Source: a virus
Reading direction: 5' to 3' (one strand)
Virus record (IMG/VR): IMGVR_UViG_3300042317_000390
Location: 104,654 to 168,653 of that record
Length of the DNA: 64,000 nt
Both the position numbers and the translations under genes were made by a program. Shown here one piece after another: positions 141 through 49,644 of this stretch (within the stretch, counting starts at the first letter, position 1; each line of letters begins with the position of its first letter). The notes under the pieces were generated by a model that was not told the DNA's origin, searched no databases, and was given only the letters and a program-made list of their open reading frames with translations.

Positions 141-1366
141 GCGGATATATCGGTCCAAAAACAGCAGACGTTCCAGTAGGAACAATTAGCACTAAAGGAA
201 CTATTAGCGGTAACAACATTGTTATTGGTGGTGCTACTGTTAACTCCACTGTGTTTACGGGTACTGCTAATAATTCAACTTACGCTTTTGGTAAAACAGA
301 AGGTAATTTAAACGTAAACTCTGCTGTTTACGCTAATGGATCATATACTAATACGTTCACGGTTGGTAATTCAAATTATTTTGTTGCTAATGGTAATGTT
401 GGACTTAGTACAGCTACCCCTAATTTTAAATTAGACTTAAGAAATGGCAGAGCACAGTTTGCTTGTGCTAACGAAGCATTCTCTATAGGTTTAAGATATA
501 ACGAAAACACTAATGGTGTTTGGTTAGGTTCTCCATCGGCCAACGCATTTCAAATTTCTAATGCTGGTGGTGGTGCTTTATTTAATATTACTGGTAATGG
601 TAATGTTCTTATTCCTGCAGGTAATTTAGGAGTTGGAGTTTCTTCGCCAAATCATAGTATTGCTACTACTGTTTCGATGGCTATTACTGCTTCTGGTGGT
701 GCTCAATATTTGCTCATGGGTAATCAAGATTCTGGTGGAGTTAATAAACCAGGTATAATAAGAAGTTTTAATGGTGGGCAGTTTGAAATCGGTTTTGGTG
801 ATTCTTGGACAAATTCTACTGGTGGTAATTTTACTAATGTATTTGCTGTATATAGTCCCGCCGGAACAGTATGTTTAAAAGGTGGAAATACTTCTGCTGG
901 TGGTACTGGTATTACTTTTCCTACTACACAATCTGCAAGTTCTGACGCCAATACTCTTGATGATTATGAAGAAGGTTCATGGACACCAGTATTTACTGCC
1001 GACACACCACCAACCGGTGTTACATACAGTTCTAGAATTGGTACATATACTAAGATAGGCGATCTAGTCTATGTCAGATGTACCATTCTACTTTCAAGTA
1101 AAGGTACAGGTGGTTCAGGAACAGTCTTTATAACCGGATTACCATTCTCCGCTGCTGGTTTAGCCAACGGATATGCCTATCAAACTTTAGGTGGTTATTG
1201 TTATCCATCTTCGGGTGACACATTTACAGCCATGTATGGATGTGTTTATGATAGTGGCTCAGCTATTATAACGTCATCGGCACCAGGCGCACTTTCTACA
1301 ATAGCTTGGTCATCTTATGGCAACATTTCAAAAATTAGTTTTTCAGGCACTTATAAGATAAGTTAA
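137..1366 (+). CDS. tail fibre / receptor-binding protein
   Basis: Gly/Asn/Thr-rich, ANGNVG repeats, NTLDDYEEGSWTP motif before a C-terminal beta-rich head. Confidence 0.75.
   Translation: MSGYIGPKTADVPVGTISTKGTISGNNIVIGGATVNSTVFTGTANNSTYAFGKTEGNLNVNSAVYANGSYTNTFTVGNSNYFVANGNVGLSTATPNFKLDLRNGRAQFACANEAFSIGLRYNENTNGVWLGSPSANAFQISNAGGGALFNITGNGNVLIPAGNLGVGVSSPNHSIATTVSMAITASGGAQYLLMGNQDSGGVNKPGIIRSFNGGQFEIGFGDSWTNSTGGNFTNVFAVYSPAGTVCLKGGNTSAGGTGITFPTTQSASSDANTLDDYEEGSWTPVFTADTPPTGVTYSSRIGTYTKIGDLVYVRCTILLSSKGTGGSGTVFITGLPFSAAGLANGYAYQTLGGYCYPSSGDTFTAMYGCVYDSGSAIITSSAPGALSTIAWSSYGNISKISFSGTYKIS
935..988 (+). repeat. 54-bp module shared with 2676-2729 (DANTLDDYEEGxWTP)
   Basis: 46/54 nt identical by manual alignment. 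Confidence 0.85.
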
Positions 1367-1418
1367 CCCTAATTAACTACGCCGGATTAGCGTAGTCGGA
1401 CACAGAAAGGTAAATAAA

Positions 1419-1685
1419 ATGGCACTAACAGAAACTAAAGTAATCGATCAAATCACAGTCACAGAGAACGGCACCCTTCTTGTAAGAGAAGCAACAAGAG
1501 TCCTTCGTGACGGCGAACAAATCGCACAGACCTATCACCGTTGGTCTTTTGCTCCCGGTTCAGACATTTCAGAGATGCCTCAGAATGTTCAGGATATTGC
1601 TGATGTAACATGGACTCCAGAAGTCATTGCTGCTTATGAAGCACAGATAGCAGCCAGCGTTGCAACCCCACCAGTAGCAGAGTAA
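1419..1685 (+). CDS. small tail-fibre-associated protein (possible chaperone)
   Basis: GAAAGG SD; lies between fibre genes; acidic, WTPEV motif. Confidence 0.55.
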   Translation: MALTETKVIDQITVTENGTLLVREATRVLRDGEQIAQTYHRWSFAPGSDISEMPQNVQDIADVTWTPEVIAAYEAQIAASVATPPVAE

Positions 1686-3120: not shown

Positions 3121-5418
3121 ATGGCAGGATATATCGGTCAGACTCCGGGTCAAGGTCAGATTCAATACTTTACGTTCACATCAACGAATGGTCAGACCAC
3201 ATTTACTGGCGTTGACGATAACAAATATGTATTAAACTATTCTGTTGGCTTCTGCGATGTGTTCCTCAACGGTCGCCGTCTAACTCCAACATCTGACTAT
3301 ACTGCCATCGATGGTTCAACTATCGTTCTACAATCAGCAGCATCCCTTAATGACGTTCTATTTGTTGCTTCTGCTTCTACTTTTGATACAGCAGACTGGG
3401 TTACTAATGCTGTAAACTATGTTTATACTGCATCATCAGGCCAAACAACCTTTACTGGTGTTGATGATAATTCTAATACTCTTTCTTATGTTAATGGAAC
3501 TATTCTGGTATCTGTTAATGGTATCAACATTCCACAATCAGACTATACAGCAACTAACGGAACGTCAGTTGTATTGGATATTGGTGTTAATGCTGGTGAT
3601 ATTGTTCAGATTTTCTCTTTAAGAACTATGGCTGTTGTGAACTTCTTACCGCTAACTGGTGGGACAATTTCAGGTAATGTTACTGTTGGTAATAGCACTG
3701 TTAACACTCAGATTTCTGCTGGTAATATCGCTCTGAATGGTTCGTCATTAATTATTGGAAATTCCACTGTTAATGTTGTTGTTACAGAAACTAGCTTGAA
3801 GATTTCTAATAGTTCTTCTAATGTTACTTTTGGTTCTGGGCCAGCAACTATCAATGCTATTGCTTCTAATACGTTTACTATTGGAACAGCCGCCTATGTT
3901 GTTGCTAACGGTAATGTTGGTATTGGTACAGCAACACCAGACTATAAGCTAACCGTTCCCGGTGTAATCGCAACAAACAGTTCTTTAAGAGTTTTTGGTG
4001 GGTCCAACCCATTCGTATCACTGGCAGATAACAGCGGTATTGGTACAGCTTATCTACAGGTTGCTTCAAGTATCTTGAATCTATATTATGTTAATTCTGT
4101 TTCTGTTTCTGCTGGTGGTTCTACTAGGGCCATCTTTGCTGCTAATGGTAATTTTGGAATTGGTAACACAAATCCAGTCACAAAGTTACACATTACTAGC
4201 AACGATCAAGGCGGCGATCTGATAAGACTCACATCAAGTAACAATAATGGAACTTCTATGAGTTTCATAAGTTCTTCTACAAACGGAAGAACCTATAGAA
4301 TTGGATCTAATTATTCTTCCGGTGCTGGTGAGTTTTCTATATACGATTCTACTGCTTCATCTACAAGACTTTTGATATCAAATACAGGTCTTATACAGAC
4401 TTATGCTAATAATATAATTCGTACTGGATTAACAACTGGTGCTTTACAAGTATTAGGCACAACTTACGATCAAAGATTAGCGAGTTATGATATTGCTATT
4501 TTTCAAAATGATGATGCTGCTGCTATTAGAATTGTTGAAGCTAATTCTTCTGCTTCTATATCAGAATTAAGTTTGTGTTCTGGTGATGGGCCATCTTCTA
4601 ATGTTTCAGTCATAGGATCAACTGGATCAATAGCTTTTGCCACTGCTAGATCAGCAGGAACTCCTGGTTACGTGCTAACAAATGAGCGTATGCGTATTGA
4701 AACAACAGGAAATATTGGTATTGGTACCAACGCTCCAACTGCTTCTAGAAGAGTCCATATTGTTGATGGTTCTCTTAGAGTAAAGATGGAAGCAACTACT
4801 AACAATGGTTATTGTTCTTTAGACATGACCAGTAAAGATGGTTCTGGCGTTTCTACAAATATATATGCTGGTATGGGTATATCTAGCGCCTCTTCTTGGG
4901 AAATTTTTGATCAAACAAATAATCATTTAGCCCACAGATATATGACTGGAGCATCTGGTTTTCATGACTTCAGAACTCAAGGTCTACAAAGATTATTAAT
5001 AGACGCTAACGGTCAGGTAAGAAAACCATACCAACATGCATGGTTTTATTCTGGCGGTACTACCCTTGCAACAACAACATGGGTGGTTTCCAAACCATCA
5101 TCAGCAGTTATTTCTAATGCTAATTATAATACTTCTACTGGATTGTTCACTGCCCCTGTTGCTGGAAAATATATGATAGGATGTTATGGATTATTTTATC
5201 CTCATACAGGAGTATTTACATCTTCTATTTGGAAAAATGGTGCATCTTATGGTCAACAAGTCCAATCTGGTTATGATTCTTCTCAACACACATTAGTTAA
5301 TATTACAGTAATAGTAGATATGGCAGTAAATGACACTATCGGTTTTGCTTTTTATAGAACCGATAGCGCTAACCTCTATGGTGGTCAGTGGAACCAGTGG
5401 GGTTATTTCTTAGGATAA
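3121..5418 (+). CDS. tail fibre protein with duplicated N-terminal domain and C1q-like C-terminal head
   Basis: Two GQTTFTGVDDN repeats, GNVGIG repeats, C-terminal YNTSTGLFTAPVAGKY motif (C1q-like). Confidence 0.75.
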   Translation: MAGYIGQTPGQGQIQYFTFTSTNGQTTFTGVDDNKYVLNYSVGFCDVFLNGRRLTPTSDYTAIDGSTIVLQSAASLNDVLFVASASTFDTADWVTNAVNYVYTASSGQTTFTGVDDNSNTLSYVNGTILVSVNGINIPQSDYTATNGTSVVLDIGVNAGDIVQIFSLRTMAVVNFLPLTGGTISGNVTVGNSTVNTQISAGNIALNGSSLIIGNSTVNVVVTETSLKISNSSSNVTFGSGPATINAIASNTFTIGTAAYVVANGNVGIGTATPDYKLTVPGVIATNSSLRVFGGSNPFVSLADNSGIGTAYLQVASSILNLYYVNSVSVSAGGSTRAIFAANGNFGIGNTNPVTKLHITSNDQGGDLIRLTSSNNNGTSMSFISSSTNGRTYRIGSNYSSGAGEFSIYDSTASSTRLLISNTGLIQTYANNIIRTGLTTGALQVLGTTYDQRLASYDIAIFQNDDAAAIRIVEANSSASISELSLCSGDGPSSNVSVIGSTGSIAFATARSAGTPGYVLTNERMRIETTGNIGIGTNAPTASRRVHIVDGSLRVKMEATTNNGYCSLDMTSKDGSGVSTNIYAGMGISSASSWEIFDQTNNHLAHRYMTGASGFHDFRTQGLQRLLIDANGQVRKPYQHAWFYSGGTTLATTTWVVSKPSSAVISNANYNTSTGLFTAPVAGKYMIGCYGLFYPHTGVFTSSIWKNGASYGQQVQSGYDSSQHTLVNITVIVDMAVNDTIGFAFYRTDSANLYGGQWNQWGYFLG

Positions 5419-46343: not shown

Positions 46344-46801
46344 TGACTAAGTTTCTAAATGTACTAATGGAGGAAAGAGAATCAGAGAAATCTGTTGAGA
46401 CGAAGAAGAAGGAAGCATATGATTGGCGCTATGAAAATAGCATCATGAATGGACCAAAGGTAGAGATAGATGGTGATTACTCTCAGTGGAGAATCAACAA
46501 TATTCTTTCCAAGCATAAAGATATTGTTCCGTTTATCAACGAAATGAATATCAATTATCAGGTTTCAAACCATATGCACTATAGCTATCTTCATGGTGCA
46601 GTTAGAAAATATCGTCGTCAGTATACAAAAGGTGAAACTAAACAGGAAAAAGCAGCTAGAGAGAAAGAACAAGAACTTATCTCCTTGATTTCTGAGCACT
46701 ATAAATATAATATTGTTCGTGCTAAGGAAGTCCTAAAGATTCTCACAGCGGAGCAAATTAATGAAATAAGAAAAAGAAAAGAAAAAGGTGGAGTAAAATG
46801 A
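46343..46801 (+). CDS. g62: clamp loader small subunit gp62
   Basis: Between g44 and regA; NEMN, HYKYN..RAKEVL.IL. Confidence 0.8.
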   Translation: MTKFLNVLMEERESEKSVETKKKEAYDWRYENSIMNGPKVEIDGDYSQWRINNILSKHKDIVPFINEMNINYQVSNHMHYSYLHGAVRKYRRQYTKGETKQEKAAREKEQELISLISEHYKYNIVRAKEVLKILTAEQINEIRKRKEKGGVK

Positions 46802-47199
46802 ATGAATTTTTGGACTCTTTAGTAGAGGTGAAATTTGCAGAAGAAGAAGATTTTTTAAAGATTAAAGAAACTTTGACACGTATTGGTGTTGCTTCTCGCA
46901 AGGAAAAGAAATTATATCAATCATGTCATATTTTTCATAAACAGGGAAAGTATTACATAGTACATTTCAAAGAAATGTTTTTGATTGATGGAAAGGATTC
47001 TAATTTTTCAGAAGAAGATAGAGGTCGTAGAAACAAGATCGCACATCTTCTTCAGGAATGGGGTCTTTTAAAAGTAGTTGAACCAGAAAGAATTACTGAA
47101 CCATTAGCATCTATGAGTCAGATTAAGATCATCAATCATAAAGAAAAGCATGATTGGACTCTTGAGGCTAAGTATAATATGGGTCGTAAGAAAAAGTAA
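46798..47199 (+). CDS. regA: translational repressor RegA
   Basis: DFLKIKETLTRIGVAS, LYQSCHIFHKQGKYYIVHFKE. Confidence 0.95.
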   Translation: MNEFLDSLVEVKFAEEEDFLKIKETLTRIGVASRKEKKLYQSCHIFHKQGKYYIVHFKEMFLIDGKDSNFSEEDRGRRNKIAHLLQEWGLLKVVEPERITEPLASMSQIKIINHKEKHDWTLEAKYNMGRKKK

Positions 47200-47993: not shown

Positions 47994-48200
47994 ATGGTAA
48001 AGACTCAGACAGATCGTGTTATTAATGCTCTCGTGACTAAGGGTCAGGCTCTAACAGCCAAGCAGATTTCAGCACGTTTCGGTGCAGCTAATCCACATGG
48101 TCTAGTTTACAGCCTTCGTAAGAAGGGTCTAAACATCAAGCTAGTTACCACAAAGGATTCTCGTGGTCGTGAGACTTCGAAGTATACATACGTAGGCTAA
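47994..48200 (+). CDS. small winged-helix DNA-binding protein
   Basis: LTAKQISARFGAANP...SLRKKGLNI; AGGAG SD. Confidence 0.65.
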   Translation: MVKTQTDRVINALVTKGQALTAKQISARFGAANPHGLVYSLRKKGLNIKLVTTKDSRGRETSKYTYVG

Positions 48201-48201
48201 A

Positions 48202-48413
48202 TAAAGTTTCGTGGGTCTGGGCGAAAGAACGCAAGACCCTAGTTGGTAAGGGAGATCACCACCCTTGGATACACGCCGTCCGTATGGAGATTTCCGGCGC
48301 AACCGGACGAAAGGCCAGCCCAAGGGGAACCGGGTCATTAAAACACAATGGGGTTTTAATGATTTTCAATCAACGGTTCTTAAACAGACACCAACACCCA
48401 CGGAATAACTTTA
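48202..48413 (+). ncRNA. candidate ~210-nt structured non-coding RNA
   Basis: 5'/3' ends pair (48207-16/48396-405); nested helices CCCUUGG/CCAAGGG, UCCGG/CCGGA, GAACCG/CGGUUC, GUCAUUAAAAC/GUUUUAAUGAU. Confidence 0.6.
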
Positions 48414-48424
48414 CAGGAGTTTAT

Positions 48425-48655
48425 ATGCCTACCTATTACAGGTGTAGAACATGTTCTCGTATAACTAGCTTCTACCCTTGGGGGTGTATGAAACCATTTT
48501 GTGAAGTAAAGAGAAACCTTCTTGGTGATGTTATATGGAATCTCTTTATTTTCATAGCGGTAATAAGTATAATATTCTTAGCGGCGAGTAACTTTGTTGT
48601 TAACGCTAAACTAAGAGATTTGTACGGCGTACAGTATACGGTTATTCCCCGATAG
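48425..48655 (+). CDS. small Cys-motif membrane protein (start probably ATG 48425)
   Basis: AGGAG SD; CRTC...C...C plus a TM helix; stop lies inside tRNA-Asn. Confidence 0.5.
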   Translation: MPTYYRCRTCSRITSFYPWGCMKPFCEVKRNLLGDVIWNLFIFIAVISIIFLAASNFVVNAKLRDLYGVQYTVIPR

Positions 48656-48743: not shown

Positions 48744-48787
48744 GACTCGTGTGGATCTAAGGTTAGTCCACAACTATGGAGATTAAA

Positions 48788-49081
48788 ATGAAAAAGACCC
48801 TTATTGCTTTACTAACCGTGCTAACACTAGCAACGACTGCTGCTCCAGCTAACGCTTGGTGGCGTGGTGGTTACTACGGAGGATATTACGGTGGTTATGG
48901 ATGGGGCGGTTACGGTGCTGCTATGGGTATCGGTGCAGCTATCGGCGTTCTAGGTGGACTAGCAGCTTCTGGCGGTTATGGATATGGTTACGGCTATAAT
49001 CCATATTACGGATATGCTCCACCACGTGGTTATGGTTATCCTTATGGTTATCCTTCTAATGGATATTACTACGGATGGTAA
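48788..49081 (+). CDS. secreted/membrane Gly-Tyr-rich protein
   Basis: Signal peptide MKKTLIALL...APANA; GGYY repeats; glycine-zipper-like segment. Confidence 0.65.
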   Translation: MKKTLIALLTVLTLATTAAPANAWWRGGYYGGYYGGYGWGGYGAAMGIGAAIGVLGGLAASGGYGYGYGYNPYYGYAPPRGYGYPYGYPSNGYYYGW

Positions 49082-49083
49082 TC

Positions 49084-49479
49084 ATGAAAAAGATCATTCT
49101 CGTTTTATCGTTGCTTATAGCATCGAGTGCTTATGCGGGCAACGAGATAGATGTGTGTAACGGTTGTAAGATTTATTATTCAACTCCAAGAAGAGTTGTA
49201 GTAAAGAAAACCGTTACGAGACAAGTTCCTGTTCCAGTAGCAGTCCCTGTTGCTCCGGCACCAATGCCTGTTCCTGTTGCGGTTCCAGTGGCTCCAATAC
49301 AACAGCCTGTAGCTGTTCAGTATTATCCTGCTGGACCTGGACCAATCACTTCAACTATGATGGTTCCAGTAGCAGTTCCTGTAGCACCACCTCCTAGAGT
49401 TTGTGCTTGGTATATTGATCCATACGATCTGTTCGGACAGTTGTTCGGTAATCCAGATCTGGTTCAATCTTGTTGGTAA
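49084..49479 (+). CDS. secreted Pro/Val-rich protein
   Basis: Signal peptide MKKIILVLSLLIASSAYA; PVAVPVAP repeats; four Cys. Confidence 0.6.
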   Translation: MKKIILVLSLLIASSAYAGNEIDVCNGCKIYYSTPRRVVVKKTVTRQVPVPVAVPVAPAPMPVPVAVPVAPIQQPVAVQYYPAGPGPITSTMMVPVAVPVAPPPRVCAWYIDPYDLFGQLFGNPDLVQSCW

Positions 49480-49568: not shown

Positions 49569-49644
49569 AGCGGGTGGGAGGTATAGTATCTCATCGGTCT
49601 CATAAACCGATAGAAGTTGGCGCAATTCCAACACTCCGCTTCCA
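49569..49644 (+). tRNA. atypical tRNA with CAU anticodon (Met or Ile2)
   Basis: TCGGT-CTCATAA-ACCGA; T-arm GTTGG-CGCAATT-CCAAC; bulged acceptor stem; CCA. Confidence 0.7.

What the first reader, a model, noticed from the sequence alone, without database searches (positions are those of the whole stretch)
48202..48413. Unannotated ~210-nt multi-helix ncRNA at the head of the tRNA cluster
Seen: a GC-richer interval between an ORF stop (with a late-promoter-like CTAAATA) and the next SD. Its ends pair (UUUCGUGGGU 48207-16 with ACCCACGGAA 48396-405, extended by UAAAG/CUUUA). GUUGGU 48242-47 pairs with ACCAAC 48390-95 next to the terminal stem. One arm, CCCUUGG/CCAAGGG, holds a UCCGG-CGCAA-CCGGA hairpin flanked by UGGAGA and CGAAAG, which look like T-loops. 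A second arm, GAACCG/CGGUUC, holds an 11-bp hairpin. An alternative helix GGGUCU/AGACCC competes with the terminal stem. Inference: a stable phage RNA, analogous to the T4 tRNA-region RNAs C and D. The possible twin T-loops and the AAACAGA before the last helix loosely recall RNase P or tRNA-elbow-binding architecture, but the GAGGAAAGUCC core is absent, so it may be a new class or a switch.
Basis: partly seen in the sequence, partly recalled or inferred. Interest (0 to 1): 0.75.

Follow-up and report, generated by a model that had tools for sequence, protein, structure and literature searches.

The report
New pseudoknotted phage tRNA-cluster RNA
This stretch is a real gene for an intricately folded non-coding RNA of a family absent from Rfam; I found it in 23 uncultured phage or prophage sequences, mostly among their tRNA genes, and its job is still unknown.

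Summary
Window 48207-48405 (+) encodes a structured RNA. I found homologues at 23 distinct loci in uncultured phages and one prophage, with RNA G+C from 0.39 to 0.69.

The fold is supported by covariation. 86% of cells pair against 62% in shuffles, and 36 of 43 pairs change on both sides. It joins the loop of a CCCU/AGGG hairpin to the strand between a 3-bp helix P2 (CUG/CAG) and the terminal stem. It takes 15 different sequences and stays complementary.

Not conserved or not supported:
- the UAAAG/CUUUA extension
- the competing GGGUCU/AGACCC helix
- the 11-bp inner hairpin
- the "T-loops"

No Rfam 15 family matches five diverse members. The model does not hit T4 rnaC/rnaD. It does not hit the T4 vs.8 RNA that this scan reported earlier. 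No frame is conserved.

Sixteen of 23 loci have same-strand tRNA genes close by, some only 1-12 nt away. Downstream genes differ between groups.

Best reading: a stand-alone stable RNA cut out of tRNA-cluster transcripts, with an aptamer- or ribozyme-like core whose partner is unknown. The scan noted the same family once before, on other DNA (e1-5744228).

The parts
48207..48216 (+). P1, 5' strand (UUUCGUGGGU); pairs with 48396-48405
   Evidence: All 9 modelled pairs change on both sides; 94% of cells paired. Hand-set strands: 108 of 116 canonical, strand-swap control 0 of 5000.
48217..48219 (+). P2, 5' strand (CUG); pairs with CAG 48385-48387
   Evidence: 3 of 3 pairs change on both sides; 98.6% paired. 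Pair types at the first pair are GU 12, GC 7, CG 4. The G-U pairs fix the coding strand as +.
48220..48236 (+). Conserved R-GCGAAAG (48220-48227), then a variable A-rich linker ending in AAGA (48233-48236)
   Evidence: GCGAAAG is in all 23 members. This is partly ascertainment, because three of the scan patterns contained it. The GCG/CGC 'P3' hairpin shows no covariation, and CGC is missing in the L249 group and in L256. The linker carries an inserted hairpin in L188, L237 and L256.
48237..48252 (+). Pseudoknot hairpin: CCCU 48237-40 / AGGG 48249-52; the loop carries the pseudoknot 5' strand GUUGGU 48242-47
   Evidence: Three C-G pairs never vary. The fourth pair covaries (CG 10, UA 9, GC 3, UG 1). 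The loop is complementary to 48390-95.
48253..48261 (+). Conserved single strand AGAUCACCA (family consensus AGA-N-M-AC-N-N)
   Evidence: GGGAGA was part of the scan patterns; the following NNAC was not.
48262..48326 (+). Arm P5, closing stem CCCUUGG 48262-68 / CCAAGGG 48320-26. It encloses a three-way junction: P5a GCC 48275-77 / GGC 48313-15; P5b UCC 48279-81 / GGA 48286-88; P5c UCCGG 48293-97 / CCGGA 48303-07 with loop CGCAA; then CGAAAG 48308-13
   Evidence: P5: 6 of 7 pairs change on both sides. P5a, P5b and P5c: all pairs change on both sides. Single-sequence folds of most members give the same three-way junction. L188/L237 have a plain hairpin instead, and the CGCAA loop is subgroup-specific.
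48327..48379 (+). Arm P6 (GAACCG 48327-32 / CGGUUC 48374-79), variable hairpin with a window-specific 11-bp inner hairpin
   Evidence: 6 of 6 pairs change on both sides. Arm length is 15-65 nt across members.
48380..48395 (+). Conserved UUAAA (48380-84), P2 3' strand CAG (48385-87), two-nt spacer AC, pseudoknot 3' strand ACCAAC (48390-95)
   Evidence: Spacing P2'-NN-PK'(6)-(0 or 1 nt)-P1' is the same in all members. Pseudoknot: 78 of 78 canonical cells with all 6 positions covarying in 13 hand-aligned members. 21 of 23 have at least 6 contiguous pairs; non-cognate mean is 3.3.
48396..48405 (+). P1, 3' strand (ACCCACGGAA)
   Evidence: See P1 5' strand. The covariance-model match is 48207-48404, 158.6 bits.

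Best explanation
Window 48207-48405 (+) is a gene for a roughly 200-nt non-coding RNA. It belongs to an uncatalogued family whose members are 150-214 nt long.

The fold, shown by covariation. A long terminal stem P1 leads into a 3-bp helix P2. An invariant GCGAAAG lies on the 5' side of P2 and C-UUAAA on its 3' side. Next comes a small hairpin, CCCN/NGGG. Its loop pairs with the 6 nt that lie between P2' and P1'. This is an H-type pseudoknot whose 3' strand runs straight into P1'. Two arms, P5 and P6, follow a conserved AGA-NN-AC strand.

Inferred. The GCGAAAG/UUAAA internal loop bends the RNA so that the hairpin can reach back to the P1/P2 joint. The never-varying C-G pairs and A-rich strands then form a compact core of the kind seen in aptamers and small ribozymes.

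Inferred from gene order. The RNA is transcribed together with the phage's tRNA genes. It is released by the host's tRNA-processing nucleases: RNase P at the next tRNA, and endo- and exonucleases trimming back to P1. It accumulates as a stable RNA that acts in trans on a partner not yet known, which could be a protein, an RNA such as tRNA, or a small ligand. It is not a leader for one particular gene.
For: Family and fold:
- 23 distinct loci match model R1 at 37-159 bits.
- None of 120 bacterial loci that matched the same loose three-motif pattern gave a hit at E up to 0.1.
- RNAalifold on a plain MAFFT alignment, made before any model existed, already gave P1, P2, the pseudoknot hairpin and P5c with compensatory changes.
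- On the model alignment 86.4% of cells pair against 62.4% in shuffles. 36 of 43 pairs change on both sides. The covariation score is 0.59 against 0.185 in shuffles and about 0.1 for slid partners.
- The pseudoknot takes 15 distinct sequences and stays complementary.

Non-coding: stops occur in every frame across members and indels are not multiples of three.

Strand: G-U pairs in P2 and P1.

tRNA setting:
- 16 of 23 loci have same-strand tRNA genes within about 400 nt.
- The RNA starts 1-2 nt after the tRNA's CCA in L249, L260, L188 and L237.
- It starts 5 nt after a tRNA in L229.
- It ends 10-12 nt before a tRNA in L249, L260 and L248.
- It sits inside arrays of 12 and 24 tRNAs in L185 and L244.

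Not gene-specific:
- Downstream genes are unrelated between groups.
- In L002 a tRNA-like element follows the RNA, not a gene.
- In the high-G+C group the RNA follows lysis genes. In L167 a hairpin with a short U-rich tail follows.
- The winged-helix protein upstream in the window has 49 relatives elsewhere. Only L002 carries the RNA beside it.
Against: - No expression data exist. No cultured phage carries the RNA: blastn of five members against 50,697 phage records found nothing. Transcript ends, stability and processing are therefore all inferred.
- Seven loci show no tRNA nearby. Four of these are short or cut loci. Three are high-G+C temperate-type phages, so tRNA linkage is not obligatory.
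- Nine or more loci have an ORF with a ribosome-binding site 10-60 nt downstream. A cis role is not excluded.
- GCGAAAG, GGGAGA and CTTAAAC were used as search patterns. Their invariance is partly circular. The helices were not in the patterns.
- The model alignment leans towards the model's structure.
- The partner and the activity are unknown.
Confidence: 0.55

Rival explanations
1. A new class of self-cleaving or self-processing ribozyme. It would cut at or near its own 5' (or 3') end and so help to separate neighbouring tRNAs in the polycistronic transcript, as the HDV-like theta ribozymes of gut phages are proposed to do.
For: - The core is pseudoknotted, with about 30 near-invariant junction nucleotides, while the peripheral arms vary. 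This pattern is typical of small ribozymes.
- P1 begins 1-2 nt after the CCA of the upstream tRNA in L249, L260, L188 and L237, and 5 nt after it in L229.
- Precedent: theta ribozymes lie with their cleavage site next to phage tRNAs (PMC10879173).
Against: - The strand order is not that of HDV-like ribozymes. Here P1 encloses P2; in HDV the two helices cross.
- No Rfam ribozyme model matched at E up to 10.
- In the window, L185, L248 and the high-G+C group a protein gene lies upstream, not a tRNA.
- No cleavage site can be named from sequence.
Confidence: 0.18
2. A cis-acting leader: a riboswitch or protein-binding operator that controls translation or transcription of the gene or tRNAs immediately downstream.
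For: - The architecture is aptamer-like. A hairpin loop folds back onto a strand of the closing helix, as in the THF-I riboswitch (PMC6614920).
- An ORF with a Shine-Dalgarno sequence follows within 10-30 nt in the window (AGGAG 48415-19, ATG 48425), and also in L196, L185, L188 and L222.
- In L167 a hairpin with a short U-rich tail follows the RNA.
Against: - Downstream genes are unrelated between groups and mostly of unknown function.
- In L249, L260 and L248 the next feature is a tRNA 10-12 nt away, which leaves no room for an expression platform.
- In L002 a tRNA-like element follows.
- The Shine-Dalgarno sequence lies outside P1, and no conserved alternative pairing sequesters it.
Confidence: 0.1
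3. One reading: a miniature RNase P-like or tRNA-elbow-binding RNA that recognises or cleaves pre-tRNAs in trans.
For: - The strand order P1, P2, variable region, A-rich strand, pseudoknot 5' strand ... A-rich strand, P2', short spacer, pseudoknot 3' strand, P1' is the same as P1-P2-P3-J3/4-P4 ... J18/2-P2'-J2/4-P4'-P1' of RNase P RNA. This comparison is from memory of the E. coli M1 structure and was not tested.
- The RNA lives in tRNA arrays.
Against: - No RNase P model of Rfam, including the minimal archaeal type, matched any of five members at E up to 10.
- The CR-I/CR-V sequences are absent.
- Here the pseudoknot's 5' strand sits inside a closed hairpin loop, which RNase P does not have.
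- The spacer between P2' and the pseudoknot strand is 2 nt and lacks the conserved ACAGAA.
- The arm with the supposed T-loops is dispensable: L188/L237 have a plain hairpin.
- Hosts already have RNase P.
Confidence: 0.04
4. Not an RNA gene: a chance fold, a DNA-level element, or a small protein-coding gene (the 48284 frame).
For: An ATG-started frame, 48284-48655, runs through the 3' two-thirds of the element and into the next gene.
Against: - Compensatory changes occur in 36 of 43 pairs, and G-U pairs work on one strand only.
- That frame holds 1-7 stops in all other members, and no frame is open in all.
- Indels are of 1, 2, 4, 5, 17 and 23 nt.
- Model hits reach E 1e-42, with none in the control DNA.
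Confidence: 0.01

Closest known systems
Phage T4 stable RNAs species 1 and 2 (rnaC, rnaD) of the T4 tRNA cluster
   Same: Small non-coding RNAs encoded among phage tRNA genes on the same strand. They are presumably released from the same transcripts by tRNA-processing enzymes, and their function is unknown (T4 annotation).
   Different: No sequence or structure homology. Model R1 run with filters off gives only noise over rnaC/rnaD, 2.9 bits or less. The T4 sequences lack GCGAAAG, GGGAGA and UUAAAC.
ROOL and GOLLD RNAs (large ornate RNAs of phages and prophages)
   Same: Orphan, intricately folded, pseudoknotted RNAs of phages and prophages, 'often near tRNA islands', with no known function or protein partner (bioRxiv 10.1101/2024.12.08.627333).
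   Different: Those are far larger: many GOLLD members exceed 800 nt, and ROOL is roughly 580 nt from memory. They form multimeric nanocages. This RNA is 150-214 nt. Their Rfam models did not match it. Nothing is known here about multimerisation.
THF-I (tetrahydrofolate) riboswitch aptamer
   Same: Same kind of architecture. A junction lets a terminal loop fold back and base-pair with a receptor strand in the closing helix, giving a long-range pseudoknot (PMC6614920).
   Different: No match to the Rfam THF model. Different conserved nucleotides and about twice the size. It is not placed before folate genes, and there is no expression platform. In several members tRNAs flank the RNA directly.
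HDV-like theta ribozymes of gut phages
   Same: Pseudoknotted RNAs lying directly next to phage tRNA genes. Their proposed role is in tRNA maturation (PMC10879173).
   Different: A different fold: not the nested double pseudoknot in which P1 and P2 cross. This RNA is larger. No HDV-family Rfam match. Self-cleavage is untested here.
Bacterial and archaeal RNase P RNA
   Same: The order of strands around a central pseudoknot helix resembles P1-P2-P3-P4 (from memory). Both are linked to tRNA.
   Different: No conserved-region sequences, no specificity domain and no Rfam match. The pseudoknot strand is enclosed in a hairpin loop.
The uncatalogued 'pseudoknotted phage RNA' of rV5-like, T4-like (before or inside vs.8) and N4-like phages, reported earlier in this scan
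   Same: Another unannotated, pseudoknotted RNA family that usually lies beside phage tRNA genes (earlier notes e1-271795 and e1-202740, unchecked AI notes).
   Different: A separate family. R1 with filters off finds nothing in the T4 vs.8 region; the best hit is 7.9 bits, on the opposite strand. The T4 sequence there has none of this family's motifs.

Membership tests
Any Rfam 15 family | Match to a curated covariance model at or near its gathering score | tested here: not met
   Only tRNAs reach gathering score in the window. At E up to 10 the element and four other members (L185, L171, L188, L249) give either nothing or unrelated snoRNA and lncRNA noise of 8-13 bits.
RNase P RNA | P4 helix formed by the conserved CR-I (GAGGAAAGUCC-like) and CR-V (ACAGAA...GGCUUA-like) sequences | tested here: not met
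   No RNase P model matched. The family consensus has GCGAAAG and UUAAAC instead, and the pseudoknot helix has no conserved sequence.
RNase P RNA | Specificity domain with interleaved T-loops that bind the tRNA elbow | tested here: inconclusive
   The proposed UGGAGA is not conserved. The arm that carries it is replaced by a plain hairpin in L188/L237. T-loop geometry cannot be read from sequence.
T4 rnaC / rnaD | Sequence and structure homology to the T4 RNAs | tested here: not met
   R1 against T4 68000-76000 with filters off gives no hit above noise over 70908-71171.
T4 rnaC / rnaD | Location within a phage tRNA gene cluster, same strand | tested here: met
   This shows analogy of setting only.
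tRNA / tmRNA | Cloverleaf, or a tRNA-like domain with a tag reading frame | tested here: not met
   ARAGORN and the Rfam tRNA and tmRNA models do not call the element.
HDV-like (theta) ribozymes | Nested double pseudoknot in which P1 and P2 cross, with the cleavage site at the 5' end of P1 | tested here: not met
   Here P1 encloses P2. The only crossing helix is the loop-to-J2/1 pseudoknot. No Rfam HDV-family hit.
HDV-like (theta) ribozymes | Self-scission in vitro | not testable with these tools
   Needs transcription and cleavage assays.
THF-I riboswitch | Match to the THF model and placement upstream of folate transport or biosynthesis genes | tested here: not met
   No Rfam hit. Downstream features are tRNAs or unrelated small genes.
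Kink-turn motif (for the GCGAAAG / UUAAA loop) | A three-nt bulge followed by tandem sheared G-A and A-G pairs next to a Watson-Crick stem | tested here: inconclusive
   P2, then R-G-C, then G-A on one strand, facing A-A next to P2' on the other, fits the bulge and the first G-A pair. The second pair would be A-A, not A-G. A UAA/GAN-type loop is an alternative. There is no covariation to test because both strands are invariant.
rV5 / T4 vs.8 pseudoknotted phage RNA (earlier scan reports) | Shared conserved core sequence and fold | tested here: not met
   R1 finds nothing in T4 63500-65500. The motifs are absent.

The most novel reading that the evidence does not exclude
The RNA is a new class of natural catalytic or ligand-binding RNA that works on the phage's tRNA supply. 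It might be a self-processing ribozyme that separates tRNAs in the array. It might instead be a trans-acting aptamer or decoy that binds a tRNA, a tRNA-targeting host defence nuclease or a metabolite.
Probability: 0.25. Interest if true: 0.85.

Novelty: new variant of a known kind. Interest (0 to 1): 0.62.

Why it matters
Phage tRNA arrays are turning out to carry structured RNAs besides tRNAs: T4 rnaC/rnaD, ROOL, GOLLD, theta ribozymes, and several uncatalogued families seen in this scan. For most of them no function is known.

This family adds a compact fold of about 160-200 nt that is defined by covariation. Its conservation pattern, with an invariant junction core and free-varying arms, is the one that has repeatedly marked ribozymes and aptamers.

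The RNA is small enough for direct biochemistry, such as self-cleavage tests, in-line probing, pull-downs, and crystallography or cryo-EM. It could show what phages gain from placing such RNAs in tRNA operons.

For annotation, it explains a G+C-rich 'gap' in T4-like and other phage genomes. Model R1 and alignment A6 are a usable seed for an Rfam family.

Tried and rejected
- Rfam at gathering score and at E up to 10 on five members found nothing.
- blastn of five members against 50,697 cultured-phage records gave no match. No host or expression data can be attached.
The hits were almost all chance.
- The upstream winged-helix protein as a guide to relatives gave 49 loci. Only L002 carries the RNA, so the protein is not a partner.
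- The GCG/CGC 'P3' hairpin shows no covariation and is absent in several subgroups. I dropped it.
- Homology to T4 rnaC/rnaD and to the T4 vs.8 RNA of earlier scan reports: none.
- Flanking proteins of eight loci against PHROGs and Pfam gave unrelated or unknown families: a ferredoxin-like PHROG, Rz-like spanin, and hypotheticals. There is no conserved neighbour.
- The sigma-70 promoter and terminator scan around the element gave counts no higher than in shuffles, and no terminator between 46500 and 50500.
- A loose three-motif pattern in bacterial genome contigs gave 120 loci, all chance by the model. I used them as a negative control.
- Resemblances to an anti-Shine-Dalgarno sequence (GAUCACC), to the Y RNA/Ro site, and to CsrA GGA motifs were considered. 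I dropped them because the segments are not conserved across the family.
- A paper search for an earlier description of this motif turned up nothing that matches.

Full report
**Setting.** The window is the last 64 kb of a 168,653-bp IMG/VR virus record. Its neighbours are T4-type genes. The clamp-loader and translation-repressor region is 68-72% identical in DNA to T4-like cyanophages. A RegA-like ORF lies at 46798-47199.

The element lies between the stop codon of a 68-aa winged-helix protein (47994-48200; Pfam HTH_39, weak) and a 76-aa CxxC/membrane ORF (48425-48655). The Shine-Dalgarno sequence AGGAG of that ORF is at 48415-19. tRNA-Asn, tRNA-Thr and tRNA-Gly follow at 48646, 49488 and 49760 on the same strand. 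The genome holds one copy.

**Checking the observation.**
- The + strand folds to -68.5 kcal/mol, z = -3.4, with no shuffle as good. The minus strand has z = -2.7.
- G+C is 0.50-0.52 against about 0.30-0.45 around it.
- Rfam 15 gives nothing for the element at gathering score, and only noise at E up to 10.

**Finding relatives.** blastn against cultured phages found nothing. The upstream protein led to 49 viral loci. Only one of them, L002, holds the RNA, at about 80% identity and with the same tRNA-Asn/Thr/Gly order downstream.

The two sequences already showed compensatory changes: GAACCG/CGGUUC becomes GAGCC/GGCUC, GUUGGU/ACCAAC becomes AUUGGA/UCCAAU, and UCUG/CAGA becomes UCCG/CGGA.

I then scanned for strings conserved between them. 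I built covariance model R1 from a MAFFT alignment of 12 sequences. Two looser three-motif scans followed.

The outcome is 23 distinct loci scoring 37-159 bits. They comprise:
- a T4-like group (window, L002, L196, L222)
- L168
- L185
- L227/L229
- L219
- a high-G+C group (L167, L170, L171)
- L188/L237
- L238/L240
- L246
- L256
- L244
- a large L249 group (L249, L260, L248, L253)

L171 is identical in the RNA to L230, which lies on a 1.26-Mb contig and so is probably a prophage.

RNA G+C runs from 0.39 to 0.69. Contig sizes run from about 42 kb to 209 kb. Of 120 bacterial genome loci that matched the same loose pattern, none matched the model.

**Structure.** RNAalifold on the plain MAFFT alignment, before any model existed, already predicted P1, P2, the CCCN/NGGG hairpin and the P5c hairpin. 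19 of its 28 pairs showed double-sided changes.

On the 23-sequence model alignment:

| Measure | Observed | Control |
|---|---|---|
| Cells forming standard pairs | 86.4% | 62.4% in shuffles (0 of 500 as high) |
| Pairs that change on both sides | 36 of 43 | 27.8 (shuffle mean) |
| Covariation score | 0.59 | 0.185 shuffled; about 0.1 with partners slid by 1-3 columns |

Per helix:
- P1: 9 of 9 pairs covary.
- P2: 3 of 3.
- P5: 6 of 7.
- P5a, P5b, P5c: all pairs.
- P6: 6 of 6.
- CCCN/NGGG hairpin: three invariant C-G pairs, plus a fourth pair that is CG, UA or GC.

The supposed GCG/CGC hairpin (P3) never covaries, and its CGC is missing in the L249 group and in L256. I do not count it as a helix.

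**The pseudoknot.** Its 5' strand is the loop of the CCCU/AGGG hairpin. Its 3' strand lies between P2' (CAG) and P1'. It therefore crosses both P2 and the hairpin.
- In 13 hand-aligned members all 78 cells are canonical, all six positions covary, and 0 of 5000 strand swaps do as well. For L227/L229 I left out one bulged U.
- Across 23 members, 21 have six or seven contiguous pairs and 15 different helices occur. Non-cognate loop and strand combinations average 3.3 pairs.
- The spacing is fixed: P1(9+)-P2(3)-R-GCGAAAG-linker-CCCN-(N)-PK(6)-(N)-NGGG-AGANNACNN-P5-P6-C-UUAAA-P2'(3)-NN-PK'(6)-(0 or 1 nt)-P1'.

Because PK' runs directly into P1', the hairpin, the pseudoknot and P1 can stack into one long helix (inference).

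The invariant GCGAAAG and UUAAA face each other across P2. They could form a kink-turn-like or UAA/GAN-type loop that turns the chain back (inference). The second sheared pair would be A-A, so a standard kink-turn is not shown.

**Peripheral parts.**
- P5 is a three-way junction in most members, with a GAAAG-like return strand. In L188/L237 it is a plain hairpin.
- The CGCAA loop is confined to some subgroups.
- P6 varies from 15 to 65 nt.
- The window's 11-bp inner hairpin is unique to the window.

This leaves no conserved support for twin T-loops. The competing helix GGGUCU/AGACCC and the UAAAG/CUUUA extension are not conserved either.

**Not coding, and strand.** No reading frame is open in all members. 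The window's 48284 frame has 1-7 stops in the others. Indels are of 1, 2, 4, 5, 17 and 23 nt. G-U pairs, for example 12 of 23 at the first P2 pair, work only on the + strand.

**Context.** Sixteen of the 23 loci have same-strand tRNA genes close by.
- In L249 and L260 the RNA begins 1 nt after tRNA-Asn and ends 10-12 nt before tRNA-Thr or tRNA-Met.
- In L188 and L237 P1 begins 2 nt after the CCA of tRNA-Leu(UAG).
- In L229 it starts 5 nt after tRNA-Asn.
- L185 and L244 hold it inside arrays of 12 and 24 tRNAs.
- In the L249 group P1 is extended by 5 bp, ACCAU/AUGGU. L253 has CCAC/GUGG, a compensatory change. In L249/L260 the ACCA of this extension is the 3' end of the upstream tRNA, while in L248 it follows an ORF stop.
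- The three high-G+C phages have no tRNAs nearby. There the RNA follows Rz-like spanin genes, and in L167 a hairpin with a short U-rich tail follows it.

Flanking proteins are unrelated between groups. Only the T4-like group shares the downstream TYYxCxxC peptide, and in L002 a tRNA-like element sits between the RNA and that peptide.

No terminator-like site lies between 46500 and 50500 in the window. Promoter-like sites are no more frequent than in shuffles. Co-transcription with the neighbouring genes and tRNAs is therefore the simplest reading.

**What it is and how it probably works.**
- Shown: a conserved, single-copy, non-coding RNA gene with a covariation-supported pseudoknotted fold, usually embedded in phage tRNA arrays.
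- Inferred: it is released from the tRNA-cluster transcript by the host's tRNA-processing nucleases, and its long P1 protects the ends. T4's rnaC and rnaD are handled this way, which I state from textbook knowledge and did not test here.
- Inferred: the invariant junction core with free-varying arms, and the fold-back pseudoknot, resemble aptamers and small ribozymes more than protein-binding sRNAs. The THF-I riboswitch uses the same device of a loop docking on a receptor strand of the closing helix (PMC6614920).

I put about 55% on a stand-alone trans-acting stable RNA with an unknown partner, 18% on a self-processing ribozyme, 10% on a cis-regulatory leader and 4% on the RNase P-like idea. 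Theta ribozymes next to phage tRNAs are the precedent for the ribozyme reading (PMC10879173).

**Comparison with known RNAs.**
- It is not a member of any Rfam family (five members tested).
- It is not related to T4 rnaC/rnaD.
- It is not the 'pseudoknotted phage RNA' that earlier reports of this scan found in rV5-like phages and in front of T4 vs.8. I tested this, and R1 finds nothing there.
- In kind it stands beside ROOL and GOLLD, which are orphan ornate RNAs of phages 'often near tRNA islands'. It is several-fold smaller and unrelated in fold.
- One earlier first-reader note (e1-5744228) describes what is clearly an L249-type member in another genome, with the same ACCATAATTGAGAAT closing helix and ACUGUU/AACAGU loop pairing.

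**Caveats.**
- Discovery relied on conserved strings, so the invariance of GCGAAAG, GGGAGA and CTTAAAC is partly circular. The helices were not part of the patterns.
- The model alignment leans towards the modelled structure.
- The pseudoknot counts rest on strands that I set by hand or took from a best-run search.
- There are no expression data and no cultured carrier.

Noticed in passing
window 49569-49644 (+); L002 3479-3555; L196 4098-4174: A conserved tRNA-like element that neither ARAGORN nor the Rfam tRNA model calls. It folds as a cloverleaf: a 7-8-bp acceptor stem followed by UUCCA, a 6-bp anticodon stem with loop (C/U)UCAUA(A/C) giving anticodon CAU, and a 5-6-bp T-like arm with an atypical loop. 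Two pairs show compensatory changes among the three copies. Its position moves: after tRNA-Thr in the window, 8 nt after the RNA in L002, and about 110 nt before the RNA in L196. It may be a non-canonical tRNA(CAU) of Met or Ile2 type.
   Followed up: partly
window 48776-49081 and 49075-49479 (+); L002 about 4040-4366 (3' part of the 3890-4366 frame) and 4236-4718: Between the tRNA genes lie small genes for signal-peptide proteins of very low complexity. One is rich in Gly and Tyr (GGYYGGYG repeats). One is rich in Pro, Val and Ala and ends in a conserved ...FGNPDLVQSC motif. Both are conserved in L002.
   Followed up: no
L249 2252-2445; L260 4992-5185; L248 2216-2410 (-); L253 1170-1362: In the L249 subgroup P1 is lengthened by 5 bp (ACCAU/AUGGU; CCAC/GUGG in L253). 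In L249 and L260 the ACCA of this extension is the 3' end of the upstream tRNA-Asn. The tRNA's CCA tail would therefore be base-paired in the primary transcript.
   Followed up: partly
L253 about 1362-1436 (+): Ten nt after the RNA a sequence begins that looks like the 5' half of a tRNA with a UCC (Gly) anticodon loop. ARAGORN did not call a tRNA there.
   Followed up: no
L167 about 1450-1520 (-), and the equivalent stretches of L170 and L171: In the high-G+C group further hairpins follow the RNA: a small GAAAGA-loop hairpin and, in L167, a G+C-rich hairpin with a short U-rich tail. The 5' arm of that hairpin resembles the P1 5' strand. I did not test whether this is a terminator or an alternative pairing.
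   Followed up: no
L382 10850-10960 (-) = T4 64850-64960, 5' end of vs.8: The T4 stretch that earlier scan reports call a conserved pseudoknotted phage RNA has no similarity to the present family. It seems to be a second, separate uncatalogued RNA family of phage tRNA regions.
   Followed up: partly
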